From Acidobacteriota bacterium (GTDB taxonomy: Bacteria; Acidobacteriota; Aminicenantia; Aminicenantales; Saccharicenantaceae): DNA of 64,000 nucleotides. The stretch covers positions 11,160-75,159 of the forward strand of contig JAKQUO010000032.1 in NCBI GenBank assembly GCA_029569255.1. Direction: 5' to 3'. A program made the position numbers and the translations under genes. The notes beneath the pieces were generated by a model that searched no databases, was not told the DNA's origin, and saw only the letters and a list, made by a program, of their open reading frames with translations. Shown here piece after piece: positions 2,314 through 15,275 of the stretch. The first letter of the stretch is position 1; each line of letters starts with the position of its first letter.

Positions 2314-4236
2314 TCAGCCGGCCGGCAGCTTGATCGTGAACTCCGTGCCCTCGCCGACCTTGCTCTGGACGTCGATCTGGCCGCCGTGGCGCTGGACGGC
2401 CCCGTAGACCATGGGCAGGCCCAGGCCGGTCCCCTGGCCCCGGTCCTTGGTCGTGAAGAAGGGCTCGAAGATCATGTTCAGGCTCTCCTCGCCGATGCCG
2501 ACGCCCGTGTCGGCCACCCGGATGACGGCCATGCCCGTCCCCGGCTCGACCGAGGTGGCGATGGTCAGGCGTCCGCCGGCGGGCATGGCGTCGGCCGCGT
2601 TGACGGCCAGGTTGTTGATGACGCCGCGGATCTCGGCGGCGTCGACGTTGACCCGGGGCAGGTCCGGGGCCAGGTCCCTGACGATCTTGATGTTCTGGAA
2701 GGAGACGTGCTTCTCCAGGATGCGCAGGGCGTCCTCGATGAGGGCGTTGAGATCGGCCGGGGCCCGCTCGCCCTTGGCGTCGCGGGCGAAGTCGAGGATG
2801 CCCCGGACGATGCCCCGGCAGCGCAGGGTCTCGTCCCGGATGACCTTGAGGTCCTCCTCGTAGGGCGTGCCCTTCATGTCCTCGAGCAGGAGGCTCGAGT
2901 AGGTCAGGACGCCCGTCAGGGGGTTGTTGATCTCGTGGGCGATGCCCGAGGCCATCCGGCCGATCGAGGCCAGCTTCTCGGACTTGAGGATGGTCCGGTC
3001 GGCCAGGTCCGTCAGCTGGCGGTCGCGCTCCTCGATGGCGTCGACCATGCCGTTGAAGGCCTGGGACAGCCGCCGGGCGTCCTGGTCGTCGTGGGGGTCG
3101 GTCTCGATGCGGTGGTAGAAGCCCAGGGCCATCTCGGTCGAGGCGTCGATGATGCGCTTGACCGGCTTGGTGTAGAGGTTGATGAGGTAGCCGGACAGGG
3201 ACAGGGCCAGGACCGTGGCCAGGAGGATGACCAGGAGGTAGGAGATGGTCGTGTTGCGGACGACGACGTCGAACTTCTTCTTCAGGACGCCGACGTAGAG
3301 CATGCCCAGGACCTTCCGGTCGAAGTCGTAGAGCGGCGTGTAGCCGGAGATGTACCAGTCGTCGACGACGAAGGCCTTGCCGACCCAGGTCTCTCCGCGC
3401 GCGAAGACCTTGCGGTAGACCTCCTCGGACACCTGGGTGCCGATGGCCCGCCGGCCCGAGGCGTCGAGGACGTTCGTGGCGATGCGGATGTCGCCGAGGA
3501 AGACGGTCGTCGTCCCGGCGTCCTTGCCGTCGATCTTCTCGTCCTTGAAGACCAACCGCTTGAAGCGGTCGACGAACTCGGCGTTGTTGTTGAGCAGGAC
3601 GGCGGCGTAGAGGATGCCCGCGAGGCGGTCCCGGTCGAGGATGGGCGCGGCGATCTTGATGACCAGGGCCCGTTCCTCGGCCGGCGCCGACCGGGGCCGG
3701 GCGTGCGACGTCGGCACGATCGGGATGACCGTCCGCGAGGCCAGGTCGGCGCCCTCCCGGGCGATGTCCTCGTAGACGAGCAGGCCCGTGCCGGCGACGG
3801 GCGTGTGGCTGCGCAGGACCTCCTGGATGGTCCGGTAGCCGGCCATGCCGTCGCCGAAGGCCCCGAAGTTGTTGGCCCGGACGAGCATCGTGCCGTCGGC
3901 GTTGACGACGTCCACGATGTCGAAGCCGAAATCCCGCTTGATCTGGTTGAGCTTGTCGAAGAGCGCGGGCCGGTCCCCGGCCACCGCGGCCCGGACGATC
4001 TCCGGCGTCCCGGCCAGGTGCTGGACGACCCTCGAGCGGTTCTCGATCTCCTCCTGGTAGAGCTCGCTCGTCGAGGCCAGGTTGGCCCGCACGGTGGCGT
4101 AGGCGTCGCGGACGAGGTTCGTGTTGAGCGCGCTCAGCCCGACGATGACCGACAGGACGCCGGCCAGGAAGACGATGGCCAGCAGGCTGACGACGAGCTT
4201 GAAGCGGATGCTCGAGCGCGCCAGCGGCTTGATCAT
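2314..4236 (-). CDS. membrane sensor histidine kinase (periplasmic Cache-like domain, HAMP, HisKA, HATPase)
   Basis: 640 aa; two TM segments flanking a ~300-aa extracytoplasmic domain; H-box [11 protein letters not shown]; GTGLGLPMV ATPase motif. Confidence 0.85.
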
Positions 4237-4637
4237 GCCAGGGCGCGGCCGACCTTGGCCAGCAGCTCGTCGAGGTCGACGGGCTTGGTCAGGAACTCGT
4301 TCCGCCCGGGGAGGAAGCTGTCGGACGGGTCCATGGAGAAGCGGGAGTTCGTGACCTGGTCGATGGCCGTCAGGATGACGATGGGCACGTCGCGGAAGGC
4401 CTTGTACTTCGAGGTCTCGCGGCGGCTGCGGACGGCCGCGGCGGCCTCGAACCCGGCCGTGTCCGTCTCCATCATGACGTCCAGGACGACGAGGTCGGGC
4501 CGCTCGGCCAGCAGGGCCTTGAGGCCGTCGGCCCCGCTGTGGGCGGCGGCGACCTCGTAGCCGTGGGCCTTGAGGACCTGGGCCAGGCTGGCCGTGAGGT
4601 CCCGGTCGTCGTCGACGATGAGGATCTTCTTGCTCAT
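4233..4637 (-). CDS. single-domain response regulator (CheY-like REC)
   Basis: MSKKILIVDDD...VVLDVMME...TKPV. Internal ATG at 4637 chosen: it forms an ATGA overlap with the stop of the upstream hydrogenase small-subunit gene, and its own stop overlaps the kinase start (ATGA at 4233-4236). Confidence 0.85.
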   Translation of the reverse strand: MSKKILIVDDDRDLTASLAQVLKAHGYEVAAAHSGADGLKALLAERPDLVVLDVMMETDTAGFEAAAAVRSRRETSKYKAFRDVPIVILTAIDQVTNSRFSMDPSDSFLPGRNEFLTKPVDLDELLAKVGRALA

Positions 4638-5164
4638 GAGTTCAGGACCTCGTAGATGACGTTGCGCTCCTCCCAGGCCTTGTTCCGTTCGTACATGTCG
4701 ATGGGGAACTCGACCTGCTTGAGCTCGACCGGGGCGGCCTTCTTGTCGACCAGGCCGAGGGCCAGGGCGACGCCGTAGACGATGGCCTCCGGACGCGGCG
4801 GGCAGCCGGGGATGTAGTAATTGACGGGCACGGCCGCGGCCCCGCCCCCGGTGACGTTGTAGGTGTCGAACCAGCAGCCGCCGCCCGTGGCGCAGGAGCC
4901 GATGCCGAAGACGAGCTTGGGCGCGGGCATGGCCGCCCAGGCCTTCTTGACGAGCGGCAGGGTCGGCCGGGTCACGGCCCCCGACAGGAGCATGACGTCG
5001 GCGTGCCGCGGCGAGCCGACGAGCCTGATGCCGAACCGCTCGACGTCGTAGTAGGGGGTCAGGATGTTGAGGATCTCGATGTCGCAGCCGTTGCAGGCCC
5101 CGCTGTTGCAGTGATAGACCCAGAGCGAGCGGGGGAAGCACTTCTTGGCCAGCTTGGCGAGCAT
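4634..5164 (-). CDS. hycG: group 4 [NiFe]-hydrogenase small subunit (HycG/NuoB-like)
   Basis: 176 aa; CNGCDIE...GSCATGGGCW...IPGCPPRPEA NuoB-type FeS motifs. Confidence 0.85.
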   Translation of the reverse strand: MLAKLAKKCFPRSLWVYHCNSGACNGCDIEILNILTPYYDVERFGIRLVGSPRHADVMLLSGAVTRPTLPLVKKAWAAMPAPKLVFGIGSCATGGGCWFDTYNVTGGGAAAVPVNYYIPGCPPRPEAIVYGVALALGLVDKKAAPVELKQVEFPIDMYERNKAWEERNVIYEVLNS

Positions 5165-5165
5165 G

Positions 5166-5711
5166 TCACTCTCCCGTCGAAGCCGGGCGCTCGTAGCGCT
5201 CGGTCTTCCCGAGCTCGGCCGGACGGAAGGTGTCCGTGGCCCGGCGGAGGACCGTCCGGGCCTCCAGGCTGTCGTAGCGGTAGCCGGTCAGTCCGAGCTT
5301 GTCGATGGCGTTCCTCGTCTCCATGTCGTAGCAGCGGCCGCAGCGCTGGCAGGTCAGCATGAACAGCTCCAGCGTCTCGGTGACGTCGTTCGGGTCGTCC
5401 GTGGCCTGCTCGAAGCGGCCGGTCATGGTGATGGCCTTCTCCGGGCAGACGTCGGCGCAGCGGCCGCAGTAGGTGCAGCGGGAGCCGTCGTAGAGGAGGA
5501 CCCGGATCTCCTGGCAGAGGTCGCGGACCATGATCGTCCGGGCCGGGCAGTGCTCGGCGCAGCCGGCGCAGCCGACGCACTTGGTGTGGTCCCAGTGCGG
5601 GGCGCCCCGGAAGTTCTCCGGGACCGGCCGCGGCTCGAAGGGGTACTTGAGGGTCACGACCCCCGGTTTGGCGGCCATCAGGAGCTGCTTGATCTTGCTT
5701 GTCAGCCACAT
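5166..5711 (-). CDS. hycF: 2x[4Fe-4S] ferredoxin-type subunit (HycF/NuoI-like)
   Basis: CVGCAGCAEHCP and CTYCGRCADVCP motifs; position between NuoH-like and NuoB-like genes. Confidence 0.8.
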   Translation of the reverse strand: MWLTSKIKQLLMAAKPGVVTLKYPFEPRPVPENFRGAPHWDHTKCVGCAGCAEHCPARTIMVRDLCQEIRVLLYDGSRCTYCGRCADVCPEKAITMTGRFEQATDDPNDVTETLELFMLTCQRCGRCYDMETRNAIDKLGLTGYRYDSLEARTVLRRATDTFRPAELGKTERYERPASTGE

Positions 5712-5730
5712 GGTGTCTCTCCCGCGCCTC

Positions 5731-6633
5731 TCACAGCCCCGCCACGGCCAGCCCGACCGCGGTCAGGGCGACGACGATGAGCCCGGCGTAGACCTTGACG
5801 GCCTGGTCGATCCTGAGCCGCGGGTTGGTCGAGCCGACCAGGGCGACGAGGGCGAAGACGGCCAGCGTCCCCAGCAGCTGGGTCAGGATGTCGCCGGCGT
5901 AGGTGCCCGTCCGCAGGAAGGGCAGGAAGACGGCGGCGAACAGCCAGGCGTAGACCATGCGCTTCATCATCACGTAGTAGCGGAACAGGGCGTAGTCCGG
6001 GCCGCTGTACTCGATGAACGCCCCCTCGAGGACCTCGATCTCGGCCTCGGGGATGTCGAACGGCTGCTTGGCCGCGAAGGCCTGCAGGGCGACGGCGTAG
6101 GCGGCCAGCATGACCGCGGTCGAGAGGCCGTATCCGGCCGCCGAGCCGCCGAAGACGGCCGCGCCGAGCCCCAGGCTGCGGCCGCGCGCGGCGCCGACGA
6201 GGAGGGTCATGGCCAGGACGGGCTCGACCATGACCATGGTCACCGTCTCCCGCGAGGCCCCGATGGCCGCGAAGGTGTTGCGGCTGGCCAAGGCGCCGAG
6301 GAGGACCGCGACGCCGCCGAGCGTCAGCAGGTAGACGATGGTGACGGCGTCGACCCGGGCGCCCAGGGCGTTGACCTTGGAGCCCAGGGGGACGAGGGCG
6401 GCCACGGCCAGGATCGAGGCGAAGGCGGCCGGCGGGGCCAGCCGGAAGGCCCAGTTCCGGGCCGAGTCGACGCGGTCCTTGCCGAGGAGCTTGAGCAGGT
6501 CGAAGTAGGGCTGGACGAGCGGCGGGCCCTGGCGCGACTGGACCCGGGCCGTGATCCTCCGCATGACGCCCTCGAAGAGCGGCGCGAGCAGGAGGAAGAG
6601 GAGGACGTTGACGAAGACGGCGGCGACGCTCAT
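5731..6633 (-). CDS. hycD: hydrogenase membrane subunit (HycD/NuoH-like)
   Basis: Internal ATG at 6633 (MSVAAVFVNVLLF...RITARVQSRQGPP). Polytopic membrane protein; the upstream part of the long ORF overlaps the large-subunit gene in another frame. Confidence 0.8.
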   Translation of the reverse strand: MSVAAVFVNVLLFLLLAPLFEGVMRRITARVQSRQGPPLVQPYFDLLKLLGKDRVDSARNWAFRLAPPAAFASILAVAALVPLGSKVNALGARVDAVTIVYLLTLGGVAVLLGALASRNTFAAIGASRETVTMVMVEPVLAMTLLVGAARGRSLGLGAAVFGGSAAGYGLSTAVMLAAYAVALQAFAAKQPFDIPEAEIEVLEGAFIEYSGPDYALFRYYVMMKRMVYAWLFAAVFLPFLRTGTYAGDILTQLLGTLAVFALVALVGSTNPRLRIDQAVKVYAGLIVVALTAVGLAVAGL

Positions 6634-6635
6634 GG

Positions 6636-8315
6636 TCACTCCTTCCCGCCCGCGCCCCGCGACATCCGCTCGAGCTCGGCCCGGCCGACGACGCGCCGGG
6701 CGCCCGAGCGGGCGTCGACGACGGCCACCCGGTCCGTGCAGGAGAAGCAGGGGTCGATCTGGCCGAGGATGATGGGGAAATCGGCGAACTGGTTGTCGAG
6801 GAGCATGGCCGGCACGGCCTGGAGGTTCGGGTAGGTCGGGGCCCGGACGCGCCAGCGCTCGGGCCGGTTCTCCTCGCCGGTGATGACGTAGTGGACCGAC
6901 TCGCCGCGCGGGGCCTCGACCATGGATATCGCGTGCCGCAGGGGCGGCGGGGCCTCGGGCATGTCGGCCATGAGCGGGCCCTCGGGCATCCGGGCCAGGG
7001 CCTGCCGGAGGATGGCGATGGCCTCGAAGACCTCCAGGACCCGGACGACGAGCGTCCCCCAGACGTCGCCGCTGTCGACGACAGGGACGTCGAAGGCCAT
7101 GTCGTCGTAGGCGGCGTAGGGGTGGTCCTTGCGGACGTCCAGCTTCAGGCCGCGGGCCCGGGCCACCGGGCCGACCAGGCTCCAGCGGGCCGTCTCTTCT
7201 TTCGAGAGATAGCCGACGCCCTTGGTCCGGCGGTGGATGGCCCCGTCGCCGACAACGGCCTTCTTGAGGGTCAGGACGTCTTTCTCCAGGCCCGCCAGCA
7301 TGCCCTCGATCTCGGCCCGGACCTCCGGCCCGATGTCGCGCCGGACGCCGCCGATGACGATCATGCCGTAGGTCTTGCGGTTCCCGGTGATGCGCTCCGC
7401 CAGCCACATGACCTTCTCGCGGACGCGCCAGGCGTGCATGAAGACCGTGTCGAAGCCGATGAGGTGGCCGGCGATGCCGAGCCAGAGGAGGTGCGAGTGG
7501 AGGCGCTCGATCTCGAGCATGACCGTCCGGATGTACTCGGCCCGCCGCGGCACGCGGATGCCGGCCGCGGCCTCGACGCCCTGGGCGTAGCAGCAGGCGT
7601 GGACCGAGCCGCAGATGCCGCAGATGCGCTCGGCGACGAAGGGCACCTCGTTGTAGCTGACCTGGGTCTGGCAGAGCTTCTCGATCCCCCGGTGGGTCAT
7701 GAAGCCGCGGTAGTCGCAGCCCTTGATGGTCTCGCCGTCGACGTAGACGGCGAAGTGCTCGGGCTCGTGGAGGCTGGCGTGGAACGGGCCGATGGGGACG
7801 ACCGTCGTCCCGGGCGGGGCCTCGTCGAGCCGGTAGGCGACGTCCTCGGCGGCCGGCGGCTCGAGGTCGTGCGGGACCTCCTTGCGCAGGGGATAGACGC
7901 CCTCCGGCCAGTCGTCGGCCACGACGAGGCGCTTGGGCTTGGGGTGGCCGGCGAAGCGCATCCCCAGGAGGTCCTGGTACTCGCGCTCGGACCAGCCGGC
8001 GCCCGGGAAGTCCGGGGTGATGGAGTCGAAGACCGGGTCGGCGGCGGGAGCCGAGGTCCTCAGGGCCACGGCGGCGTGGTCGGCGTCGAAGGCGAAGGCG
8101 TGGATCATCCCCAGAACGCCCTTGCGGGCGATCTCGTCGGTGCCGATGCCGACCATGTAGCGGCCGCCGAGCCCGGCCAGGGCGTTGGCGGCGGCCCTCA
8201 GGGCCGAGCGGTCGACGTCGACGAAGAGCCGGTCCGGGCGCGGCGATTCCGTTCTCTCGAGGCCGGCGCCGAGGCGGCCCCTGAGGTCTTTTTCTATCCT
8301 GTCCAGGACGTTCAT
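6636..8315 (-). CDS. hycE: group 4 [NiFe]-hydrogenase large subunit, NuoC-NuoD fusion (HycE-like)
   Basis: 559 aa; N-terminal NuoC-like domain; Ni-ligand pairs RICGICG and DPCFSCTDR, followed by a 31-aa C-terminal tail typical of protease-processed large subunits. Confidence 0.9.
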   Translation of the reverse strand: MNVLDRIEKDLRGRLGAGLERTESPRPDRLFVDVDRSALRAAANALAGLGGRYMVGIGTDEIARKGVLGMIHAFAFDADHAAVALRTSAPAADPVFDSITPDFPGAGWSEREYQDLLGMRFAGHPKPKRLVVADDWPEGVYPLRKEVPHDLEPPAAEDVAYRLDEAPPGTTVVPIGPFHASLHEPEHFAVYVDGETIKGCDYRGFMTHRGIEKLCQTQVSYNEVPFVAERICGICGSVHACCYAQGVEAAAGIRVPRRAEYIRTVMLEIERLHSHLLWLGIAGHLIGFDTVFMHAWRVREKVMWLAERITGNRKTYGMIVIGGVRRDIGPEVRAEIEGMLAGLEKDVLTLKKAVVGDGAIHRRTKGVGYLSKEETARWSLVGPVARARGLKLDVRKDHPYAAYDDMAFDVPVVDSGDVWGTLVVRVLEVFEAIAILRQALARMPEGPLMADMPEAPPPLRHAISMVEAPRGESVHYVITGEENRPERWRVRAPTYPNLQAVPAMLLDNQFADFPIILGQIDPCFSCTDRVAVVDARSGARRVVGRAELERMSRGAGGKE

Positions 8316-8325
8316 GTCGGTCTCC

Positions 8326-10188
8326 CTACTTGCCGCTCTTGCCCCCCGCGAACTTGAACAGGCCCCGCAGGGCCGCGAACATGCCCCGGTCGGCGTACCG
8401 GTTGGCCTCGTTGAGCTCCTGGTAGCCGCAGAGCCAGGTCGGGGCCTCGACCCGCTTGGCCCCGCCCGCCCGGCGCAGCAGGGCCCCCAAGGCCAGGGCC
8501 GAGCCGACGAGGAGCAGGACCACGAGGGGCGCCGCGGCCGCGCCGAAGGCCGGCAGGCCGACGCCGAGCGCCGAGGCCGCGAACGGCCCGGACGGGGCCG
8601 TCATCGCGCCGGCCAGGAGGAAGCCCTCCGACCGCCCCAGCGCGGCCAGGGCCAGGCCGACGGACAGGGCCGGGAAGAGGCCCTGCGCGAGGGCCACCGC
8701 CGCCAGGGCGATCTTGGGGGCCAGCATCGAGCCCGGGACCTCGCGGATGGGCCCGGGGGCGTGGCGCTCGGCGCCGGACGAGGTGAAGGCCATGCCGAAG
8801 AACTTGACGTAACAGGCCAGCGTCACGACGCTCGTGAACAGGGCCACGACGCCGAAGAGGACCAGGGCGACGGTCGCCTTGTGGGCGGCGAACGAGCCGC
8901 CGGCCAGGACGTTGCTGGCCACGATCGTCCACTTGCTCGAGAAGCCGCTGAAGGGCGGCATGCCCGAGATCGACAGCGAGGCGACGCCGGCGACGGCCGC
9001 GCTCACCGGCATCAGGCGGATGAGCCCGCCCAGCCTGTTGAGGTCCTTGGTGCCGGTGGCGTAGAGGATGCTGCCGCTCGTGAGGAACAGCAGGCCCTTG
9101 AAGACGGCGTGGTTGAGGAAGTGGAAGAGGGCGCCGACGGCGGCGGCCACGGCCAGGAGCCGCAGGGCCGGCGCGCCCGTCGTCCCCAGGTAAAGGGCGG
9201 CGCCCGTGGCCAGGACGATGTAGCCGACCTGGCCGATGGAGCTGTAGGCCAGCAGGCGCTTGGCGTCGCTCTGCTTCATCGATTGGACCGTCCCGACGAG
9301 AAGCGTGACCGCGCCGACCGCGGCGACGACGAGCCCCCAGGCCCGGCCGTCGAACGCGCCCTCTCCCGCCGGGGGCATGAACAGGAAGGTCCGCAGCAGC
9401 CCGTAGACGCCGGTCTTGATCATGACGCCGCTCAGCAGGGCGCTCACGGGCGACGGGGCGATGGAGTGGGCGTCGGGCAGCCAGAGCTGCCCGAGCGGCC
9501 AGACGCCGGCCTTCAGGCCGAAGCCGACGAGCAGCAGGCCGAAGAAGGCGGCCGACGGCAGCGCCCCGGTGGCGCGGAGTCCGGAGGCGATCTCCGCCAG
9601 GGGCTGGCCGAAGCGGTAGCCGTCGACGAGGAAGGCCGCGGCGACGACGAGGACCCAGGCGGCCTCCATGAGGACCAGGTACTTCGCGGCGCTGCGGCGG
9701 TTCTCCGCCTTCCGGCGCTCGAAGCGGACCAGGAAGAACGAGGCCACGGTCATGACCTGCCAGGCCAGGCTGAAGCCGAGGGCCAGGTCGTCGACCGTGA
9801 CCAGGGCGGCCATGCCCAGGACGAACAGCGGGTAGCACAGGTAATAGCCGCCCAGCCCGTACTCCGGGTAATGGTCCATGTAGCGGATGGAGTACAAGGC
9901 GCTGGCCACGGCCATGAGGGCGATGACGGCCAGGAAGACCGCCGAGACGCCGTCGACCAGGAAGGGGACGGCGACGGGGCCGAGGGCGACGGTCCGGAGG
10001 GCGGGCCCGGCGGGGCCGAAGAGGGCCTCGGCGCTCACGCTGAGCAGGAGGGCCGCCGCGCCGGAGACCAGGGCCAGGGCGACGGCCCCGGCCGCGCGCC
10101 GCTTCCGGGCGACGAGCGGCGCCGCCGCGGCCGCGGCGGCGAGCAGTCCGAAGGCGGCGAACAAGCGGGCGAAGAGGTCAGCGTTCAT
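8326..10188 (-). CDS. hycC: antiporter-like membrane subunit (HycC/HyfB/NuoL-like)
   Basis: 620 aa, ~15 TM helices; WLPDAHSIAPSPVSALLSG motif of NuoL/Mrp-type subunits. Confidence 0.85.
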   Translation of the reverse strand: MNADLFARLFAAFGLLAAAAAAAPLVARKRRAAGAVALALVSGAAALLLSVSAEALFGPAGPALRTVALGPVAVPFLVDGVSAVFLAVIALMAVASALYSIRYMDHYPEYGLGGYYLCYPLFVLGMAALVTVDDLALGFSLAWQVMTVASFFLVRFERRKAENRRSAAKYLVLMEAAWVLVVAAAFLVDGYRFGQPLAEIASGLRATGALPSAAFFGLLLVGFGLKAGVWPLGQLWLPDAHSIAPSPVSALLSGVMIKTGVYGLLRTFLFMPPAGEGAFDGRAWGLVVAAVGAVTLLVGTVQSMKQSDAKRLLAYSSIGQVGYIVLATGAALYLGTTGAPALRLLAVAAAVGALFHFLNHAVFKGLLFLTSGSILYATGTKDLNRLGGLIRLMPVSAAVAGVASLSISGMPPFSGFSSKWTIVASNVLAGGSFAAHKATVALVLFGVVALFTSVVTLACYVKFFGMAFTSSGAERHAPGPIREVPGSMLAPKIALAAVALAQGLFPALSVGLALAALGRSEGFLLAGAMTAPSGPFAASALGVGLPAFGAAAAPLVVLLLVGSALALGALLRRAGGAKRVEAPTWLCGYQELNEANRYADRGMFAALRGLFKFAGGKSGK

Positions 10189-10672
10189 GGCGGTTCTCCG
10201 GTCGGTCGGCGGCGCGGGCGCCGAGGACGGCGTCGCGGACGGCGGCGGCGGCCCGCTCGACCGCGGGGGTCAGGCCCTCGCCGAAATCCAGGTCGGCGGG
10301 CACGATGCCGAGCAGGAAGGCCTTCTTGCCCGCGGCCTCGAGGTACTTGCCGCAGAGAGAGAGGGCCATCTTGTGGGTCGAGAAGCTCCCGGCCTCGCCC
10401 ATCTCGTCGAGGGGGCCGAAGACGACGGTCCCGGGCCCGCCCGGGGCGGCCACGGCGTCGACGAAGACGACGCTCGAAGCGGCGCCGCGGGCCAGGGCGG
10501 GGACGACGTTCTCCGGCACGTCCTGGGCGTCGACGAGCTCGAGCCCGGGGACGGCCGGGGCGGCCCGCAGGGCGGCGACGATCCAGGGGCCGACGCCGTC
10601 GTCGCGGCGCAGGGGGTTGCCCACGCCGACGAGGCAGGCGCCTTGGCGGAGGACGTCGCTGAGCCCGTTCAT
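10178..10672 (-). CDS. hycI: hydrogenase maturation endopeptidase (HycI/HyaD family)
   Basis: 164 aa; VGVGNPLRRDDGVGPWIV N-terminal motif; overlaps the next gene by 11 nt. Confidence 0.75.
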   Translation of the reverse strand: MNGLSDVLRQGACLVGVGNPLRRDDGVGPWIVAALRAAPAVPGLELVDAQDVPENVVPALARGAASSVVFVDAVAAPGGPGTVVFGPLDEMGEAGSFSTHKMALSLCGKYLEAAGKKAFLLGIVPADLDFGEGLTPAVERAAAAVRDAVLGARAADRPENRHER

Positions 10673-10679
10673 GGCCGGC

Positions 10680-11522
10680 CTAGATATGCTCCCCGAGGGT
10701 CTTGATCTGCTTGTAGGTGTAGACCGGCCCGTCCGTGCAGACGAGGGTCCGGCCGATGGCGCAGTGCTGGCACTTGCCGATGCCGCACTTCATGTGCCGC
10801 TCCAGGGTCGAGACGATGTCCTCGTCCCGGAGCCCGGCGGCCAGGAGCTCCTTGATGACCGAGTTGAACATCAGCGGCGGGCCGCAGACGAAGGCCACGG
10901 TGTTCTCGACGGGGACCCGGGCCGGGGCGACCCGGGTGTGGACGAAGCCGACGGGGCCCGTCCAGCCCGGCTCGGGCCGGTCGATCGTGAAGTGGGTCTC
11001 GAAGCCCTCGGTGGCCTTCCACTTGTCGATCATGTCCCGGTACATCAGCTCCTTGGCCGAGCGGGAGCCGTAGATGAGGACGATGCGGCCGAAGTCCCGG
11101 CGGTGCTGGAGGACGTGGACGATGGACGAGCGCAGGGGGATGAGCCCGATGCCGCCGGCGACGTAGACGACGTTCTTGCCCTTGATGGACTCGAAGGGGA
11201 AGCCGTTGCCGAAGGGGCCGCGGAGGCCGATCTTGTCGCCGGGCCCGAGCTCATGGAGGGCCCGGGTGACCTTGCCGACCTGGCGGACCGACAGGTGAGG
11301 CCGGTCGTCCTCCGGGCTGAAGGGCAGGGACACGGCGAACTCGCCGGCGCCGAAGACCGTGCACATGACGAACTGGCCCGACTTGATGCGGAAGGCCCGG
11401 GCGGCCTCGGGCCGCTCGAACGAGAAGTAGAACGTGCGGACGTCCTCGATCTCGTCCCGGACCTCGTCGATGACGGCGACCTCCGGGACGGTGACGACGG
11501 CGCCGGGGTTCGGAGCGCTCAT
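10680..11522 (-). CDS. FAD/NAD(P)-binding oxidoreductase with C-terminal [2Fe-2S] (sulfhydrogenase gamma HydG / AsrB / PyrK-like)
   Basis: Internal ATG at 11522 (ATGA overlap with the upstream gene); ferredoxin-reductase fold motifs (VVYVAGGIGLIP) and MKCGIGKCQHCAIG cluster motif. Confidence 0.8.
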   Translation of the reverse strand: MSAPNPGAVVTVPEVAVIDEVRDEIEDVRTFYFSFERPEAARAFRIKSGQFVMCTVFGAGEFAVSLPFSPEDDRPHLSVRQVGKVTRALHELGPGDKIGLRGPFGNGFPFESIKGKNVVYVAGGIGLIPLRSSIVHVLQHRRDFGRIVLIYGSRSAKELMYRDMIDKWKATEGFETHFTIDRPEPGWTGPVGFVHTRVAPARVPVENTVAFVCGPPLMFNSVIKELLAAGLRDEDIVSTLERHMKCGIGKCQHCAIGRTLVCTDGPVYTYKQIKTLGEHI

Positions 11523-12586
11523 TTCGCACCTGCCTTGGTGATCTCGCGCCGGATGTAGGTGACGACGTTGGCGATGCCGATGTCGCCCGGGCAGACCCGG
11601 TTGCAGCGGCCGCAGCCGACGCAGCCGGGCCGGAGGTACTTCTTGGACTGGGAGTAGGACAGCTTGCAGAAGAAGCGCTTGTTGCGGCGGTCCTCGACGG
11701 GCTTGCGGGGGTTGTGGTCGCCGGCCATGCGGGTGTAGCCCTCGAAGGAGCAGGAGTCCCAGGACCTCGTCCGGTCGGCCCGGCCGCCGCCCGCGGGGAG
11801 GTCCTCGACGTTGAAGCAGGAGCAGGTCGGGCAGACGAAGGAGCAGGCCCCGCACTCGAAGCACTGGTCGCCGATGTACTCCCAGACGTCGTTCGAGATG
11901 AAGCCCATGGTGATGCGGTTCATGACCCGCGAGATCCAGGCCTTGTTCTCGGTGGCCTCGGCGTCGAAGCGGGCGATCGAGGCGTCGACGATCCTGGCCT
12001 TGAGGGCGGCGGCGTCCGGCCCGGCGTCCTCGAGCCCGAGCCGGCGGGCCAGGGCCTCGCCCTTGTCGCTGCCGGCCTCGTAGAGATAATGGCCGCCGGC
12101 CGACGTCAGGGCGGCGTCGAAGCCCTCCCGGGCGGCCGGCCCGCTGTCGGTGCAGACGCAGAAGCACTGGGGGAACGGCCGGACGCAGGTGTTGGCCAGG
12201 ATGAACATGCGCTTGCGGTGGTCGCGGTAGACCTCGTCGACGTACTCCTGGCCGAGGAAGAAGCGGTCCAGGCAGAGGAGCCCCGCCAGGTCGCAGGCCC
12301 GGAGGCCGACCAGGGCCTTGGGCCTGACGAGGTCCTCGCGGACGACGGCGGCCTCGCGGCTCTCCCGGTCGTAGCGGTAGGACATGATCCTCTCGGCCTG
12401 GGGGAAGACGGCGAACTTCGGCGGGTTGTAGGTGATGGGGGCGTCCAGCCGGAGGACGGCCGGGTCGTCGACCCGCTCGAACATCGGGTCGCCGCCGTCG
12501 GCCCGGACGACGGGGCCGTAGAGCTCGTAGTCGGCGGCGAGGGCGGCGAGGAGCGCCGGGACCTTGTCTCTGGGCAGAATGCGCAT
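11519..12586 (-). CDS. 4Fe-4S dicluster protein (sulfhydrogenase beta HydB / AsrA-like)
   Basis: Internal ATG at 12586 (MRILPRDKV...); CFECGACSFVCPTCSCF and CVGCGRCNRVCPGDI motifs. Confidence 0.75.
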   Translation of the reverse strand: MRILPRDKVPALLAALAADYELYGPVVRADGGDPMFERVDDPAVLRLDAPITYNPPKFAVFPQAERIMSYRYDRESREAAVVREDLVRPKALVGLRACDLAGLLCLDRFFLGQEYVDEVYRDHRKRMFILANTCVRPFPQCFCVCTDSGPAAREGFDAALTSAGGHYLYEAGSDKGEALARRLGLEDAGPDAAALKARIVDASIARFDAEATENKAWISRVMNRITMGFISNDVWEYIGDQCFECGACSFVCPTCSCFNVEDLPAGGGRADRTRSWDSCSFEGYTRMAGDHNPRKPVEDRRNKRFFCKLSYSQSKKYLRPGCVGCGRCNRVCPGDIGIANVVTYIRREITKAGAK

Positions 12587-12588
12587 GG

Positions 12589-14547
12589 TCACACCTTTTC
12601 GATCCGCACCGGGACGGCCGAATCCTGGTCCTCGTCGACGGCGGCCCCGGCGGCGTTGAGGAAGCCGGGGACCATGTCCTCGATGAAGTAGGGGACGTAG
12701 ACGGCCCCGGGCTGGATGTCCCCGGAGACGCGCACGTCCACGCGCATCGACCCGCCGGCGGCGACGACGTCGACCGGGGCCTTGTCCCGGAGCCCGAGGG
12801 CCTTGGCGTCGGCCGCGGCGACCTCGACGAAGCCGCGGGGATAGAGGAGTAGCAGGGCGTTGTACTCCCGCTTCGGGATCTGGGTCTTCTTCATGATGTT
12901 GTTGCGGTGCCAGAAGTAGTTGGCCTTGCCGGCCATGAGCAGGTAGGGGAACTCCGGCGTCGGCGCGGGGGCCGAGAGGGCGGGCGGGACGGCGACGAAG
13001 CGGAGCCGGCGCGGCGCGGCCGCCGCGTCGAGCCGGACCGTGCCCCCGGGGCGCGCGGCGTCCACGGGCCACTGCAGGCCGTGGGCCTTCCCGAGCCCGG
13101 CGTAGGTGACGCCGGCGTAGGCGGGCACGGCGGCGGCGATCCCGGCCATGATCCCCTCGGCCGATTCGACCGCCCAGTCGGCGCCGAGCTTCGCCGCCAG
13201 GTCGGCGTAGATGCGCCAGGCCGGGCGGACGCCGGAGGGCGGCTCGACCTTCTTGCGGTTGAGCTGGATGCGCCGCTCGGCGTTGGTATAGGTCCCGTCG
13301 GTCTCCGCGTAGGTGGCGGCGGGCAGGACGACGTGGGCGAGCCCGGCGAAGGGATTGGCGAAGGCGCCTATATAGAGGAGGAACTCGAGGCCCTTGATCC
13401 GGGCCGCGTGGCGGACGATCTCCTCGTCCCGGTCGGCCACGACCAGGGCCTTGAGCGGCGACGCGGGGTCGGCCAGCAGCTCGCGCGGCGTGCGGCCGGC
13501 GGCCGCGCCTTCGGTCCGGCGGTGGCCGGGGAGGAAGCGGTTCGTGGCGCCGACGTCGAAGCTGCCGACGATGTTGGCGATGCCGGGGACGGGGTTGACG
13601 CCGCAGCCTTCCCGGCCCGTCTTGCCCGCGGCCAGGAAGAGGCCGTGGAGGAAGGCGACCGTGTCGCGGTCGAGGCCGGCGATGCCGGTGGTGAAGAAGG
13701 CCATGGCCGTCGGCGACTGGGCCAGGCCGCGGGCCAGCTCCTCGATGTCGGGGACGGCCAGGCCCGAGGCCGCCGCCAGGGCGTTCAGGTCGAGCCCGGC
13801 CAGGGCGCGGGCGAAGCCGTCGAAGCCCTCGGTCCGGTCCCGGACGAAGGCCTCGTCGGCCCAGCCCTTCTCGACCAGGACCTTGGCCGCGGCGGCCAGG
13901 GCGTGCCGCAGCGCGCCGGGCCGCGTCCAGAGGTGGGCGCCGCTCAGGCGGGTCATCTGCGTCGCCCGCGGGCTCAGGGTGACCAGGCGCGCGCCGCCGC
14001 GGGCGGCCATGTGGATCTCGCTGCCGACGATGGGATTGAGCTTGGCGATGTCGGCCCCGACGACCAGGATGAACCGGGCCTGGCGGACCTCGGTGAGAGA
14101 GCCGGACATGGCCGGCCAGCCCGTGCCCTCGAGGAGGACCTCGGCGGCGTCGCCGTGGCCCTGGTCGGAGGCCAAGCCGATGTGGGGCGTGCGGCAGACC
14201 TCCCGGGCCAGCTTGGCCAGGAGGAAGTTGTCCTCGTTGGAGGCCCGGGGCGAGGCCAGGAAGGCGATCTCGTCGCCGGAGTAGCGGCCCAGCCTCCCGG
14301 CGGCGTGGGCCAGGGCCTCGTCGTAGGCGACGGGCTCGAGCCTTCCGCCGCGCCGGACGGCCGGCGAGACGATCCGGTCCCGCGCCGCCAGGAGCTCGTG
14401 GATGTGCCAGCCGCGGACGCACAGCCGTCCCCGGCTGACGGGATGACCGGGCGAGGCGAAGACGCCGCGGACGGCGGCGTCGCCGACGTCGAGGATATGG
14501 CCGCAGCCGGTGCCGCAGAAGTTGCAGACTCCCGAGTGAGTGCTCAT
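12589..14547 (-). CDS. molybdopterin-oxidoreductase family protein, FdhH-like (formate dehydrogenase alpha-like) but with non-canonical active-site positions
   Basis: 652 aa; N-terminal CNFCGTGCG...LCVRG [4Fe-4S] motif; collinear with E. coli FdhH from memory, see findings. Confidence 0.85.
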   Translation of the reverse strand: MSTHSGVCNFCGTGCGHILDVGDAAVRGVFASPGHPVSRGRLCVRGWHIHELLAARDRIVSPAVRRGGRLEPVAYDEALAHAAGRLGRYSGDEIAFLASPRASNEDNFLLAKLAREVCRTPHIGLASDQGHGDAAEVLLEGTGWPAMSGSLTEVRQARFILVVGADIAKLNPIVGSEIHMAARGGARLVTLSPRATQMTRLSGAHLWTRPGALRHALAAAAKVLVEKGWADEAFVRDRTEGFDGFARALAGLDLNALAAASGLAVPDIEELARGLAQSPTAMAFFTTGIAGLDRDTVAFLHGLFLAAGKTGREGCGVNPVPGIANIVGSFDVGATNRFLPGHRRTEGAAAGRTPRELLADPASPLKALVVADRDEEIVRHAARIKGLEFLLYIGAFANPFAGLAHVVLPAATYAETDGTYTNAERRIQLNRKKVEPPSGVRPAWRIYADLAAKLGADWAVESAEGIMAGIAAAVPAYAGVTYAGLGKAHGLQWPVDAARPGGTVRLDAAAAPRRLRFVAVPPALSAPAPTPEFPYLLMAGKANYFWHRNNIMKKTQIPKREYNALLLLYPRGFVEVAAADAKALGLRDKAPVDVVAAGGSMRVDVRVSGDIQPGAVYVPYFIEDMVPGFLNAAGAAVDEDQDSAVPVRIEKV

Positions 14548-15247: not shown

Positions 15248-15275
15248 GACGGCGGCGGGAGGCTCGGCCCGGCCG

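What the first reader, a model, noticed from the sequence alone, without database searches (positions are those of the whole stretch)
4634..14547. FHL-like group 4 [NiFe]-hydrogenase wired to an AsrA/AsrB-type FeS/flavin module instead of HycB
Seen: nine minus-strand genes with gaps of 0-19 nt or overlaps. In order they are:
- an FdhH-like molybdopterin protein;
- a 4Fe-4S protein (CFECGACSFVCPTCSC, CVGCGRCNRVCP);
- a ferredoxin-reductase-fold protein ending in a CGIGKCQHC [2Fe-2S] motif;
- a HycI-like endopeptidase;
- a NuoL-like subunit;
- a NuoCD-type large subunit with both Ni-ligand CxxC pairs and a 31-aa cleavable tail;
- NuoH-, NuoI- and NuoB-like subunits.
Established: E. coli FHL-1 links FdhH to HycE/F/G through the ferredoxin-like HycB. 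AsrAB/HydBG-type pairs are NAD(P)H-linked electron modules of sulfhydrogenases and anaerobic sulfite reductase.
Inference: this is a membrane-bound, possibly ion-translocating hydrogenase whose input branch is NAD(P)(H)-linked and/or uses an unknown substrate of the FdhH-like subunit. I do not recognise this combination as a characterised complex. No hyp maturation genes lie in the window.
Basis: partly seen in the sequence, partly recalled or inferred. Interest (0 to 1): 0.72.

Follow-up and report, generated by a model that had tools for sequence, protein, structure and literature searches.

The report
Membrane hydrogenase with NAD(P)H module
This is a widespread but never characterised membrane-bound nickel-iron hydrogenase operon that probably exchanges electrons with NAD(P)H, because its 'formate dehydrogenase' subunit has lost the catalytic residues in the same way as the NuoG relic of respiratory complex I.

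Summary
The nine minus-strand genes exist as described, with gaps of -11 to +19 nt. The core is HycC/D/E/F/G-like plus HycI. The large subunit is 41% identical to E. coli HycE and keeps both Ni-binding CxxC motifs and a 30-aa tail.

- The 'AsrA/AsrB' pair is closest to the beta and gamma (NADPH diaphorase) subunits of Pyrococcus sulfhydrogenase I.
- The FdhH-like subunit keeps its [4Fe-4S] cysteines but lacks the formate dehydrogenase catalytic set: Sec/Cys140 is Gly, Arg333 is Pro and Lys44 is Arg. E. coli NuoG shows the same pattern. These positions vary between branches of the family.
- The unit continues downstream into a translationally coupled receiver-only response regulator, found in 74 of 74 related loci, and a sensor kinase.
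- The neighbouring 'PFL-like' gene is hydroxyproline dehydratase, so nothing in the window links the operon to formate.

The same operon occurs in Aminicenantes, Spirochaetota, Proteobacteria and other phyla, including cultured strains. A similar module was noted, uncharacterised, in Saganbacteria (2019).

Best reading: an NAD(P)H-linked, possibly ion-translocating hydrogenase. This is inference only. It is a new variant of a known kind and of moderate to high interest.

The parts
12589..14547 (-). g1: FdhF/FdhH-like molybdopterin-family subunit (652 aa). It has a conserved N-terminal [4Fe-4S] site but lacks the formate dehydrogenase catalytic residues. I read it as a NuoG-like relic or scaffold.
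   Evidence: - Domains: Pfam Molybdop_Fe4S4, Molybdopterin and Molydop_binding. TIGR01591 scores 367 bits, below its cut-off of 666.
- Alignments to F420-FDH 9t1s_L and to E. coli FdhF show C8/C11/C15/C42 kept, K44 to R, U140 to G132, H141 kept and R333 to P321.
- The same holds in about 70 orthologues.
- E. coli NuoG shows the same K44R / U140G / R333-lost pattern.
11519..12586 (-). g2: HydB/AsrA-like poly-FeS subunit (355 aa)
   Evidence: - Pfam Fer4_22.
- The best solved relative is P. furiosus sulfhydrogenase I beta, 9nez_B, at 135 bits, with every Cys motif aligned.
- The Cys motifs are conserved in 73 sequences.
- The AsrA model TIGR02910 scores 131 bits, below its cut-off of 323.
10680..11522 (-). 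g3: HydG/AsrB-like flavoprotein (280 aa) with an FAD site, an NAD(P)-binding GGxGxxP loop and a C-terminal [2Fe-2S] site
   Evidence: - Pfam FAD_binding_6, NAD_binding_1 and DHODB_Fe-S_bind.
- The best solved relative is sulfhydrogenase I gamma, 9nez_C, at 189 bits.
- Across the 73 aligned sequences the motif AGGIGxIPLRS is kept with only the x position varying, LVCTDGP is invariant, and in KCGIGKCQHCAIG all the Cys residues are invariant.
10178..10672 (-). g4: HycI-type maturation endopeptidase (164 aa)
   Evidence: Pfam HycI. TIGR00072 scores 102.6 bits, above its cut-off of 47. The gene is absent from 6 Aminicenantes loci.
8326..10188 (-). g5: the single antiporter-like membrane subunit (HyfB/HycC/NuoL-like, 620 aa)
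   Evidence: Pfam Proton_antipo_M and Proton_antipo_N. It is 36% identical to HyfB and 28% to HycC. Charged residues K226, K258, H356, H360, K364 and K419 are conserved in 69 sequences and align with Lys/His/Glu residues of the Hyc/Hyf subunits.
6636..8315 (-). g6: [NiFe] large subunit, a NuoC-NuoD fusion like HycE (559 aa), with a 30-aa C-terminal extension
   Evidence: - Pfam Complex1_30kDa, NiFeSe_Hases and Complex1_49kDa.
- The best solved relative is HycE, 7z0s_E, at 415 bits; MbhL scores 257 bits.
- It is 41% identical to both HycE and HyfG.
- Over 81 sequences, L1 RICGICGSVH is found in 77 (the other 4 have G-T-V-H) and L2 DPCFSCTDR in 78 (the other 3 are conservative variants); all four Ni-ligand Cys are invariant.
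5731..6633 (-). g7: NuoH/HycD-like membrane subunit (300 aa)
   Evidence: Pfam NADHdh. It is 33% identical to HycD.
5166..5711 (-). g8: NuoI/HycF-like 2x[4Fe-4S] subunit (181 aa)
   Evidence: Pfam Fer4 families. It matches NF009053, the FHL iron-sulfur subunit model, at 109 bits. It is 32% identical to HycF.
4634..5164 (-). g9: NuoB/HycG-like small subunit (176 aa)
   Evidence: Pfam Oxidored_q6. It is 51% identical to HycG. It is the most conserved subunit of the family, with a median identity of 82%.
4233..4637 (-). Tenth conserved gene: a receiver-only response regulator (134 aa), translationally coupled to g9 through an ATGA overlap
   Evidence: The sequence shows the overlap. Pfam Response_reg is the only domain. 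A homologue lies directly after the NuoB-like gene in 74 of 74 loci that extend far enough, across phyla. The acidic pocket, the phospho-acceptor Asp, the Thr and the Lys are conserved, together with family-specific motifs.
2314..4236 (-). sCache-type sensor histidine kinase (640 aa) that overlaps the regulator gene by 4 nt. It is probably part of the same transcription unit.
   Evidence: Pfam sCache_3_3, HisKA and HATPase_c. A long homologue lies downstream in 44 loci from Aminicenantes and Spirochaetota.
14556..14735 (-). Upstream control region. It holds a conserved sigma-70-like promoter: -35 TTTACT at 14735-14730, then 17 nt, then an extended -10 TGgTATCCT at 14715-14707. A leader of about 140 nt follows.
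   Evidence: These elements are conserved in alignments of the upstream regions of related Aminicenantes loci. A covariance model finds the leader only in close Aminicenantes relatives. There is no Rfam match. Assigning a function to these elements is inference.

Best explanation

Shown by sequence:
- The core consists of a HycE-like catalytic subunit, a HycG-like and a HycF-like FeS subunit, a HycD-like and a single HycC/HyfB-like membrane subunit, and a HycI protease.
- Its peripheral electron-input (or output) module is not HycB plus an active formate dehydrogenase.
- Instead there is a HydB/HydG-type pair: a poly-FeS protein plus an FAD/[2Fe-2S] flavoprotein with an NAD(P)(H) site. This pair is homologous to the beta-gamma diaphorase of cytoplasmic group 3b sulfhydrogenases.
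- There is also an FdhF-like protein that keeps its [4Fe-4S] cluster but has lost the Mo ligand and the formate-binding residues.

Inferred:
- Electrons pass NAD(P)H -> FAD -> [2Fe-2S] (g3) -> FeS clusters of g2 -> g8 -> g9 -> [NiFe] (g6), or in the opposite direction.
- The FdhF-like subunit serves as a scaffold or cluster carrier, as the FDH-like domain of NuoG does in complex I.
- The membrane subunits couple the small free-energy difference between NAD(P)H and H2 to ion movement. Either the ion gradient helps drive H2 evolution from NAD(P)H in fermenters, or H2-dependent NAD(P)+ reduction conserves energy.
- Expression is probably controlled by the co-transcribed receiver protein and Cache-domain kinase.
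For: - Architecture and motifs. Both Ni-ligand motifs keep all four Cys in 81 sequences, and a HycI gene and a cleavable tail are present, so this is a real hydrogenase and not an Ehr-type relic.
- g2 and g3 are closest to sulfhydrogenase I beta and gamma (9nez_B and 9nez_C). All Cys, FAD, NAD(P) and [2Fe-2S] motifs are kept in 73 orthologues.
- The operon has no HycB/HyfA/HycH homologue.
- g1 has K44R, U140G and R333P, and lacks the 'DPR', 'GxTQ' and 'GxN..HP' motifs. This holds family-wide.
- In more distant branches that sit in the same operon type, positions 140/141 read Y-R, A-S or Q-R.
- The Oligoflexia locus has a 392-aa g1 without domain IV.
- Of the 73 columns conserved in 56 canonical FDH representatives, the 11 that are lost include the catalytic and formate-binding positions K44, C140, R333 and V338.
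- E. coli NuoG has the same K44R / U140G / R333-lost pattern with the cluster cysteines retained.
- g1 is one of the two least conserved subunits, at a median 46% identity (only the HycI protease is lower, at 41%), against 68-82% for the hydrogenase subunits.
- The 9-gene order is conserved across phyla.
- Nothing formate-related is in the window. The neighbouring glycyl-radical enzyme is hydroxyproline dehydratase.
Against: - There are no biochemical, transcript or metal data. NAD(P)H binding and the electron path are inferred from homology alone.
- g1 is less degenerate than NuoG: it keeps 49 of 73 canonical columns against 33 for NuoG. It also has a strongly conserved family-specific motif in domain IV (FWHxNNxMKK...) and keeps the 'GTYTNxERRxQ' segment. 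Pterin binding, or a catalytic role with a non-canonical ligand such as the conserved [DE]-x-G-H, is therefore not excluded.
- NAD(P)H -> H2 is endergonic under standard conditions, so the physiological direction is uncertain.
- Proton or sodium pumping is still debated even for E. coli FHL-1 (own knowledge).
Confidence: 0.5

Rival explanations
1. The complex is a true formate hydrogenlyase. g1 oxidises formate with a non-canonical active site, and g2 and g3 replace HycB as the wire to the hydrogenase. They could also add NAD(P)+ as a second acceptor.
For: g1 is closer to formate dehydrogenases than to any other molybdoenzyme: TIGR01591 is its best NCBIfam hit, and F420-FDH and HDCR FdhF are its best solved relatives. 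His141 is kept in this clade. The hydrogenase core is nearest to HycE/HyfG. Metagenome papers routinely label such clusters FHL.
Against: - The Sec/Cys ligand, Arg333, Lys44 and Val338 are all replaced, family-wide.
- The site is not conserved between branches of the same operon family.
- g1 is truncated in one lineage.
- The score is far below the FDH model cut-off.
- The window has no formate channel or PFL. The 'PFL-like' neighbour is hydroxyproline dehydratase.
Confidence: 0.1
2. g1 is an active Mo/W-bisPGD enzyme for an unknown substrate. Its metal would either lack a protein ligand, as in arsenite oxidase, or be held by a nearby Asp/Glu/Ser. The complex would then couple oxidation of that substrate to H2 evolution, with NAD(P)H as a side branch.
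For: All three molybdopterin-family domains are present. 43 of the 73 canonical conserved columns are kept in at least 7 of 9 family representatives. A family-specific conserved motif lies in domain IV, and the [SA]-[DE]-x-G-H motif is conserved within the main clade.
Against: The [DE]-x-G-H motif is not kept in more distant members of the same operon type. The 'DPR' and 'GxTQ' cofactor-associated motifs are variable. The Oligoflexia copy lacks domain IV. The substitution pattern is the one seen in cofactor-less NuoG.
Confidence: 0.12
3. The complex is a ferredoxin-dependent (Ech-like) hydrogenase. The g1-g2-g3 module would let NAD(P)H and reduced ferredoxin be used together (electron confurcation), making NAD(P)H-dependent H2 evolution feasible.
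For: Confurcation is the usual way anaerobes make H2 from NADH (own knowledge). g3 is homologous to the NfnA/PyrK-type subunits found in a bifurcating enzyme (NCBIfam hits to sulfide/dihydroorotate dehydrogenase-like proteins). A pyruvate:ferredoxin oxidoreductase is encoded at the far end of the window.
Against: The operon has no second flavoprotein of the GltD/NfnB or NuoF/HydB type that could carry a bifurcating flavin. It also has no recognisable ferredoxin-docking subunit beyond those of any group 4 enzyme.
Confidence: 0.1

Closest known systems
E. coli formate hydrogenlyase-1 (HycBCDEFG + FdhF; HydDB group 4a; structure 7Z0S)
   Same: It shares the five core subunit types with one antiporter-like subunit, the NuoC-NuoD fused large subunit with group 4 L1/L2 motifs, a C-terminal extension removed by a HycI-type protease, and an FdhF-family protein with an N-terminal [4Fe-4S] cluster.
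   Different: - The large subunit is only 41% identical, whereas members of this family share 65-93% identity.
- There is no HycB, HycH or HycA.
- The FdhF-like gene lies inside the operon and lacks Sec/Cys140, Arg333 and Lys44.
- A HydB/HydG-type flavin/FeS pair and a receiver protein are added.
Beta and gamma subunits of Pyrococcus furiosus sulfhydrogenase I (group 3b; 9NEZ)
   Same: These are the best solved relatives of g2 and g3. All Cys motifs, the FAD and NAD(P) motifs and the [2Fe-2S] motif are shared. In that enzyme the pair links the hydrogenase to NADP(H) (own knowledge).
   Different: Here the pair is encoded with a membrane-bound group 4 enzyme, not with cytoplasmic group 3b alpha and delta subunits. 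The scores are far below the equivalog cut-offs.
Complex I N-module, in particular the FDH-like C-terminal domain of NuoG/Nqo3 with cluster N7
   Same: An FDH-fold subunit keeps the four cluster cysteines and carries the substitutions K44R, Sec140G and loss of R333. It sits beside an NAD(P)H-oxidising flavoprotein on a NuoB/C/D/H/I/L-type core.
   Different: - The flavoprotein belongs to the FNR/PyrK family and is not NuoF/NuoE.
- g1 has no [FeFe]-hydrogenase-like N-terminal domain.
- g1 is less degenerate than NuoG (49 against 33 of 73 columns kept).
- The catalytic subunit still has a [NiFe] site instead of a quinone pocket.
'Mbh-Mrp-oxidoreductase type' group 4 hydrogenases noted in Saganbacteria and Elusimicrobia (PMC6349859 with its Supplementary Note 5; bioRxiv 10.1101/765248)
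   Same: A fdhH-like molybdopterin protein that could not be classified as an FDH, together with asrA-like and asrB-like genes, lies next to a group 4 hydrogenase. [quoted passage not shown] The function is unknown.
   Different: Those clusters carry Mrp antiporter subunits and a CooF-like protein. Here the core is Hyc-like with a single antiporter-like subunit and no CooF. I did not compare the sequences directly.
Anaerobic sulfite reductase AsrABC
   Same: g2 and g3 are homologous to AsrA and AsrB.
   Different: There is no AsrC (sirohaem) gene. TIGR02910 and TIGR02911 score below their cut-offs (131 < 323 and 177 < 289). The sulfhydrogenase subunits score higher.

Membership tests
Group 4 membrane-bound [NiFe]-hydrogenase | The large subunit carries the group 4 Ni-binding motifs: L1 C[GS][ILV]C[AGNS]xxH and L2 [DE][PL]Cx[AGST]Cx[DE][RL] | tested here: met
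   The window protein has CGICGSVH and DPCFSCTDR. All four Cys are invariant in 81 sequences. The motif definitions are from my own knowledge (Vignais & Billoud).
Group 4 membrane-bound [NiFe]-hydrogenase | NuoB-, NuoC/D-, NuoH-, NuoI- and NuoL-like subunits are encoded together | tested here: met
   Pfam and NCBIfam assignments. The order is conserved in 60 of 80 loci.
Formate hydrogenlyase (HydDB group 4a, Hyc/Hyf type) | The large subunit is nearest to HycE/HyfG among characterised enzymes | tested here: met
   HycE scores 415 bits against 257 for MbhL. Identity to HycE/HyfG is 41%. I could not run HydDB or build a phylogeny labelled with groups 4a-4i.
Formate hydrogenlyase (HydDB group 4a, Hyc/Hyf type) | A HycB/HyfA-type ferredoxin subunit links the FDH to the hydrogenase | tested here: not met
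   No operon protein matches HycB or HyfA, apart from a weak 50-residue hit of g8. The intergenic gaps are too short to hide a gene.
Formate hydrogenlyase (HydDB group 4a, Hyc/Hyf type) | A catalytically competent formate dehydrogenase partner is present | tested here: not met
   See the FDH rows below. U140 is Gly and R333 is Pro.
Metal-dependent formate dehydrogenase (FdhF/FdhA, TIGR01591) | A Sec or Cys ligand to Mo/W (E. coli FdhF U140) | tested here: not met
   The residue is Gly132 in the window protein. Gly occupies this position in every aligned orthologue (2 of the 71 sequences are gapped there), and no conserved Cys lies nearby.
Metal-dependent formate dehydrogenase (FdhF/FdhA, TIGR01591) | Catalytic His141 and Arg333, and Lys44 between the pterin and the cluster | tested here: not met
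   His is kept in this clade but is Q/Y/R/S/A in other branches. Arg333 becomes P/T/A/V/I. Lys44 becomes Arg or Gln.
Metal-dependent formate dehydrogenase (FdhF/FdhA, TIGR01591) | The score reaches the curated family cut-off | tested here: not met
   367 bits against a cut-off of 666.
Metal-dependent formate dehydrogenase (FdhF/FdhA, TIGR01591) | N-terminal CxxCxxxC...C [4Fe-4S] site | tested here: met
   C8, C11, C15 and C42 are conserved in all full-length family members.
Metal-dependent formate dehydrogenase (FdhF/FdhA, TIGR01591) | Binds Mo/W-bis-PGD | not testable with these tools
   Motif evidence is mixed: 'DPR' and 'GxTQ' are lost, while 'GTYTNxERRxQ' is kept. The single-sequence AlphaFold model was unusable, with a mean pLDDT of 34.5.
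Sulfhydrogenase (group 3b) beta-gamma diaphorase pair | The beta subunit has the conserved Cys clusters. The gamma subunit has FAD, an NAD(P) GGxGxxP loop and a C-terminal [2Fe-2S] motif. | tested here: met
   Alignments to 9nez_B and 9nez_C. The motifs are conserved in 73 sequences.
Sulfhydrogenase (group 3b) beta-gamma diaphorase pair | Encoded with group 3b alpha and delta hydrogenase subunits, and scores above the equivalog cut-offs | tested here: not met
   The partners here are group 4 subunits. NF040833 and NF040835 score 140 and 192 bits against cut-offs of 750 and 650.
Sulfhydrogenase (group 3b) beta-gamma diaphorase pair | NAD(P)H oxidation or reduction activity, and the nucleotide preference | not testable with these tools
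   The G-[AS]-R-[ST] segment after the second strand is conserved but does not discriminate NADH from NADPH (own knowledge).
Anaerobic sulfite reductase AsrABC | The AsrC sirohaem subunit is present and AsrA/AsrB score above cut-off | tested here: not met
   There is no AsrC-like gene in the operon. The scores are 131 < 323 and 177 < 289.
Ehr (hydrogenase-related complexes without a [NiFe] site) | The Ni-ligand cysteines are lost | tested here: not met
   All four Cys are present and invariant, and a HycI protease gene is present.

The most novel reading that the evidence does not exclude
This operon family could encode a previously unrecognised respiratory or fermentative enzyme class: an NAD(P)H:H+ oxidoreductase that is membrane-bound and ion-coupled. 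It would be built from an FHL-type hydrogenase, a borrowed sulfhydrogenase diaphorase and a formate dehydrogenase relic. That would make it an independent, living parallel to (or snapshot of) the step in which a hydrogenase acquired an NADH-oxidising module and an inactivated FDH domain on the way to complex I. The universally linked receiver protein could be a dedicated regulatory subunit.
Probability: 0.4. Interest if true: 0.78.

Novelty: new variant of a known kind. Interest (0 to 1): 0.58.

Why it matters
- **A different way to make H2 from NAD(P)H.** If the enzyme links NAD(P)H directly to H2 at the membrane, it would give fermenters in digesters and sediments (Aminicenantes, Spirochaetota) a route for disposing of NAD(P)H as H2, or for gaining NAD(P)H from H2. 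These clusters are currently labelled 'formate hydrogenlyase' or 'NADH-quinone oxidoreductase subunit C'.
- **Complex I evolution.** The FDH relic has the same substitutions as NuoG. This makes the family a tractable model for how complex I acquired its N-module.
- **It can be tested now.** Cultured carriers exist: Chitinibacter, Chitiniphilus, Chitinilyticum, Rhodocyclus purpureus and Lamprocystis purpurea.

Tried and rejected
- **A formate link through the neighbouring 'PFL-like' gene (15993-18398).** Rejected. NCBIfam identifies it as trans-4-hydroxy-L-proline dehydratase (1294 bits, cut-off 1100) with its activase. It is adjacent only in the closest Aminicenantes.
- **HydDB group 4f ('formate-coupled, putative').** Rejected. 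Published 4f clusters (Methylocystis, Desulfitobacterium) are 6-7-gene Ech-like units without this module, and the '4f' of Margulisbacteria lack the Ni ligands.
- **Single-sequence AlphaFold2 of g1.** The mean pLDDT was 34.5, so the model was unusable and no fold search was run.
- **Rfam search of the conserved leader.** Only sub-threshold hits appeared, all on the wrong strand and inside coding sequence.
- **Covariance model of the leader.** It is found only in close Aminicenantes relatives, so it says nothing about the family as a whole.
- **Generic promoter and terminator scan.** It found nothing significant inside the operon. The terminator-like hairpin at 14706-14723 overlaps what I now read as the -10 region.
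- **Literature.** All ten allowed full-text searches turned up no biochemical or genetic study of this operon type. The Staphylothermus, Elusimicrobia, ruminant and Nobu 2020 papers were checked and are not about it. The Greening 2016 ISME J paper could not be opened.
- **HydDB itself and AlphaFold-Multimer** were not available.

Full report
**1. Observation**

The window has about 70% G+C, so many spurious ORFs overlap the real ones. The intergenic distances are 2, -4, 7, -11, 10, 2, 19 and 1 nt.

Pfam and NCBIfam give these assignments:

| Gene | Assignment |
|---|---|
| g1 | Molybdop_Fe4S4 + Molybdopterin + Molydop_binding |
| g2 | Fer4_22 |
| g3 | FAD_binding_6 + NAD_binding_1 + DHODB_Fe-S_bind |
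| g4 | HycI |
| g5 | Proton_antipo_N/M |
| g6 | Complex1_30kDa + NiFeSe_Hases + Complex1_49kDa |
| g7 | NADHdh |
| g8 | 2x Fer4 |
| g9 | Oxidored_q6 |

The quoted cysteine motifs are all present. By alignment with HycE, the C-terminal extension after DPCFSCTDR is 30 residues; HycE has 32.

**2. The unit is longer than reported**

- The stop codon of g9 overlaps (ATGA) the start of a 134-aa receiver-only response regulator at 4233-4637.
- That gene in turn overlaps by 4 nt a Cache-domain histidine kinase at 2314-4236.
- A hybrid receiver-kinase follows at 1196-2290.
- Upstream of g1 is a 178-nt spacer. In the Aminicenantes relatives it holds a conserved -35 TTTACT / 17 nt / TGgTATCCT promoter-like element and a conserved leader of about 140 nt. 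The leader has no Rfam match.

**3. Distribution**

- The large subunit has thousands of relatives (6920 with E <= 1e-30). The best 120 are 66-100% identical.
- A scan of one genome per GTDB species gave 412 confirmed stretches. I examined the best 80.
- The closest locus is a Candidatus Aminicenantes MAG (93% identity), so the window most likely comes from that lineage of Acidobacteriota.
- tblastn of all nine proteins shows the identical order in 60 of 80 loci. Six more have the same order but no HycI hit. Of the other 14, 10 are cut by a contig or locus end; the rest are L004 (fragmented hits), L070 and L071 (rearranged order) and L072 (truncated g1).
- Carriers include Aminicenantes, many Spirochaetota/Leptospirales MAGs, Vicinamibacterales, Thermodesulfobacteriota (rearranged order), Oligoflexia, and cultured Proteobacteria: Rhodocyclus purpureus DSM 168, Chitiniphilus shinanonensis and C. 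eburneus, three Chitinilyticum species, Chitinibacter tainanensis and Lamprocystis purpurea.
- The receiver gene follows the NuoB-like gene in 74 of 74 loci that extend far enough. Its phosphorylation residues are conserved.
- The Cache kinase follows in 44 loci.
- In Chitinibacter and Chitiniphilus a divergent CbiM-PDGLE (nickel/cobalt uptake type) gene lies upstream. In Chitiniphilus an AIRS-domain protein of HypE size, followed by ORFs of HypD and HypF size, lies downstream.
- The window itself has no Hyp domains.

**4. The hydrogenase core**

- The best solved relative of g6 is E. coli HycE (7z0s_E, 415 bits), ahead of P. furiosus MbhL (257 bits) and complex I NuoCD/NuoD.
- Identities to the E. 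coli reference proteins (fetched; compared):

| Window gene | E. coli relative | Identity |
|---|---|---|
| g6 | HycE, HyfG | 41% each |
| g9 | HycG | 51% |
| g5 | HyfB | 36% |
| g7 | HycD | 33% |
| g8 | HycF | 32% |
| g4 | HycI | 28% |

- No operon protein resembles HycB, HyfA or HycH.
- Over 81 sequences, both Ni-binding motifs keep all four Cys (L1 is identical in 77, L2 in 78; the rest are conservative variants). This is a real hydrogenase, not an Ehr-type relic.
- The antiporter-like subunit keeps the conserved Lys/His/Lys set that aligns with the Hyc/Hyf subunits. Ion translocation is therefore possible but unproven.
- The family forms a discrete clade: at least 65% identity among the 80 loci, 53% to a more distant operon of the same type (L085), and 38-41% to HycE/HyfG.
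- I could not run HydDB. By nearest characterised neighbour the family would sit with or beside group 4a. It is not group 4f as that group appears in published clusters.

**5. The flavin/FeS pair**

- g2 and g3 match the beta and gamma subunits of P. furiosus sulfhydrogenase I (9nez_B at 135 bits, 9nez_C at 189 bits). They match these better than the Asr models, which score below their cut-offs.
- Every Cys motif of beta is aligned. So are the FAD segment, the GGxGxxP NAD(P) loop and the C-x4-C-x2-C...C [2Fe-2S] motif of gamma. All are conserved in 73 orthologues.
- In sulfhydrogenase this pair carries electrons between the hydrogenase and NADP(H) (own knowledge).
- The nucleotide preference cannot be read from the sequence.

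**6. The FdhH-like subunit is not a canonical formate dehydrogenase**

- In the HMMER alignment to the F420-dependent FDH (9t1s_L) and in a MAFFT alignment with E. coli FdhF:
  - the four cluster cysteines are kept;
  - Lys44 is Arg;
  - the Sec/Cys140 Mo ligand is Gly132;
  - His141 is kept;
  - Arg333 is Pro321;
  - the 'GxN..HP', 'DPR' and 'GxTQ' segments are altered.
- The same is true of about 70 orthologues.
- A search of 1.84 billion cluster representatives found 11411 relatives. Among the best 150, only 56-58 have the canonical K44/C140/R333 set.
- Four non-canonical representatives at 33-34% identity were traced to contigs:
  - P0130 lies in the same nine-gene operon.
  - P0141 lies behind hypB/hypA-type genes and is followed by the FeS and flavin genes, HycI and two antiporter-like genes.
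  - P0133 is followed by the FeS gene and a further gene for which no Pfam hit is on record.
  - P0134's contig is too short to tell.
- Their residues at positions 140/141 are Y-R, A-S, G-A and Q-R. The 'active site' is therefore not conserved within the wider operon family.
- The Oligoflexia locus carries a 392-aa version without domain IV.
- Of 73 columns at least 90% conserved in canonical sequences, 43 are kept in at least 7 of 9 family representatives. The 11 that are lost include K44, C140, R333 and the formate-binding V338.
- The FDH-like domain of E. coli NuoG, fetched as a control, shows the same picture: cluster cysteines kept (N7), K44 to R, U140 to G, R333 to A, V338 to S. NuoG keeps 33 of 73 columns and the window protein keeps 49.
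- g1 is also one of the two least conserved subunits, at a median 46% identity; only the HycI protease is lower, at 41%.
- I therefore read g1 as an FDH relic of intermediate degeneracy that is retained for its cluster and as a scaffold.
- Caveats: a strongly conserved family-specific motif in domain IV, and the retained 'GTYTNxERRxQ' segment, leave room for pterin binding or another role.

**7. Context gives no formate link**

- The large gene upstream, which is PFL-like in Pfam, is trans-4-hydroxy-L-proline dehydratase with its activase.
- It is adjacent only in the nearest Aminicenantes, together with a second receiver gene and a 173-aa protein without Pfam or NCBIfam matches.

**8. Mechanism**

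Shown: the subunit set, the cofactor motifs, the absence of a HycB-type subunit from the operon, the loss of the FDH catalytic residues, and the conservation of the operon.

Inferred:
- NAD(P)H is the soluble redox partner, acting through g3 and g2.
- g1 is a NuoG-like accessory subunit.
- The membrane subunits couple the reaction to an ion gradient.
- The direction depends on the H2 partial pressure. H2 evolution is plausible in fermenters such as Aminicenantes and Spirochaetota. NAD(P)+ reduction is plausible in phototrophs such as Rhodocyclus and Lamprocystis.

The rivals are a true FHL with an unusual active site, an unknown molybdoenzyme substrate, and ferredoxin/NAD(P)H confurcation. All are less well supported but not excluded.

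**9. Prior knowledge and novelty**

- Matheus Carnevali et al. 2019 (PMC6349859, main text and Supplementary Note 5) described Saganbacteria regions with a fdhH-like gene that could not be classified as an FDH. These regions also held asrA-like, asrB-like and cooF-like genes and an Mrp-Mbh-type group 4 hydrogenase. They called it enigmatic and compared the module with nuoE/nuoF.
- Meheust et al. (bioRxiv 10.1101/765248) call this the 'Mbh-Mrp-oxidoreductase type' of unknown function.
- Metagenome papers label the Aminicenantes group 4 enzyme simply as formate hydrogenlyase. Some public records name the large subunit 'NADH-quinone oxidoreductase subunit C'.
- None of my ten full-text searches found a biochemical or genetic characterisation.
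- The finding is therefore a Hyc-core variant of a module combination that has been seen before but never explained.
- What is new here:
  - the family-wide loss of the FDH catalytic set and its identity with the NuoG pattern;
  - the closer affiliation of the pair with sulfhydrogenase beta and gamma;
  - the universally linked receiver gene;
  - the list of cultured carriers.

**10. Verdict**

- Novelty: new variant of a known kind.
- Interest is about 0.58. The family is widespread and experimentally tractable, and it is relevant to anaerobic H2/NAD(P)H metabolism and to complex I evolution. However, every functional statement rests on sequence inference.

Noticed in passing
window 4233-4637 (-); homologues at about 13700-14100 in L001-L080: A receiver-only response regulator is translationally coupled to the last hydrogenase gene. 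It follows the NuoB-like gene in 74 of 74 related loci across phyla. It has intact phosphorylation residues and family-specific conserved segments (DVMMETDTAGFE, TAIxQVTNSRFS...DSFLPG). Such a universal link between a stand-alone receiver and a hydrogenase operon is unusual.
   Followed up: partly
window 1196-4236 (-): An sCache_3 histidine kinase (2314-4236) and a hybrid receiver-kinase (1196-2290) lie directly downstream. The Cache kinase is conserved in 44 Aminicenantes and Spirochaetota loci. The signal it senses is unknown.
   Followed up: partly
window 14556-14735 (-): A promoter-like element (TTTACT, 17 nt, TGgTATCCT) and a G+C-rich leader of about 140 nt are conserved upstream of the operon. 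The leader has two predicted stem regions, little covariation and no Rfam match. A covariance model finds it only in close Aminicenantes relatives (L001, L002, L005, L006, L007, L009, L010, L012, L013).
   Followed up: partly
window 15993-19291 (-): The glycyl-radical enzyme that looks like pyruvate formate-lyase in Pfam is trans-4-hydroxy-L-proline dehydratase (NF043068, 1294 bits). Its radical-SAM activase lies upstream. The pair suggests anaerobic hydroxyproline catabolism in this Aminicenantes lineage.
   Followed up: yes
window 14726-15794 (-): A 173-aa protein with no Pfam or NCBIfam match and a second receiver-only regulator sit between the hydroxyproline dehydratase and the hydrogenase operon. 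Both are conserved in this position in Aminicenantes loci only.
   Followed up: partly
L072 4656-5834; L070 and L071; L012, L055, L058, L064, L066, L067: Variants of the operon exist. In an Oligoflexia MAG the FdhH-like gene is shortened to 392 aa and lacks domain IV. In two Thermodesulfobacteriota MAGs the NuoL- and NuoH-like genes have moved upstream of the FdhH-like gene. Six Aminicenantes or Acidobacteriota loci have no HycI gene in the operon.
   Followed up: partly
L080 2214-3176 (-); L062 2155-3057 (-) and 15746-20620 (-): In Chitinibacter and Chitiniphilus a CbiM-PDGLE fusion (a nickel/cobalt ECF transporter component) is divergently placed upstream of the operon. In Chitiniphilus an AIRS/AIRS_C protein of HypE size and ORFs of HypD and HypF size lie downstream.
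   Followed up: partly
proteins P0121-P0270: Only 56-58 of the 150 closest 50%-identity cluster representatives of this FdhF-like protein have the canonical K44/C140/R333 set. A large and diverse population of FDH-like proteins without the catalytic residues exists in public data. The ones I traced sit next to HydB/HydG-like genes.
   Followed up: partly
window 38664-41226 (-) and 52407-54967 (+): There are two separate ECF sigma factor modules, each with a DUF4097 'toastrack' protein; the first also encodes a zf-HC2 anti-sigma protein between the two.
   Followed up: no
window 60400-63954 (+): Pyruvate/2-oxoacid:ferredoxin oxidoreductase domains (POR_N, TPP_enzyme_C, POR) lie at the far end of the window. 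They mark a possible source of reduced ferredoxin in this organism.
   Followed up: no
P0030, P0032, P0050, P0070: Public records name the [NiFe] large subunit of this family 'NADH-quinone oxidoreductase subunit C' or 'Fe-S-binding domain-containing protein'. Automated annotation therefore hides these hydrogenases.
   Followed up: no
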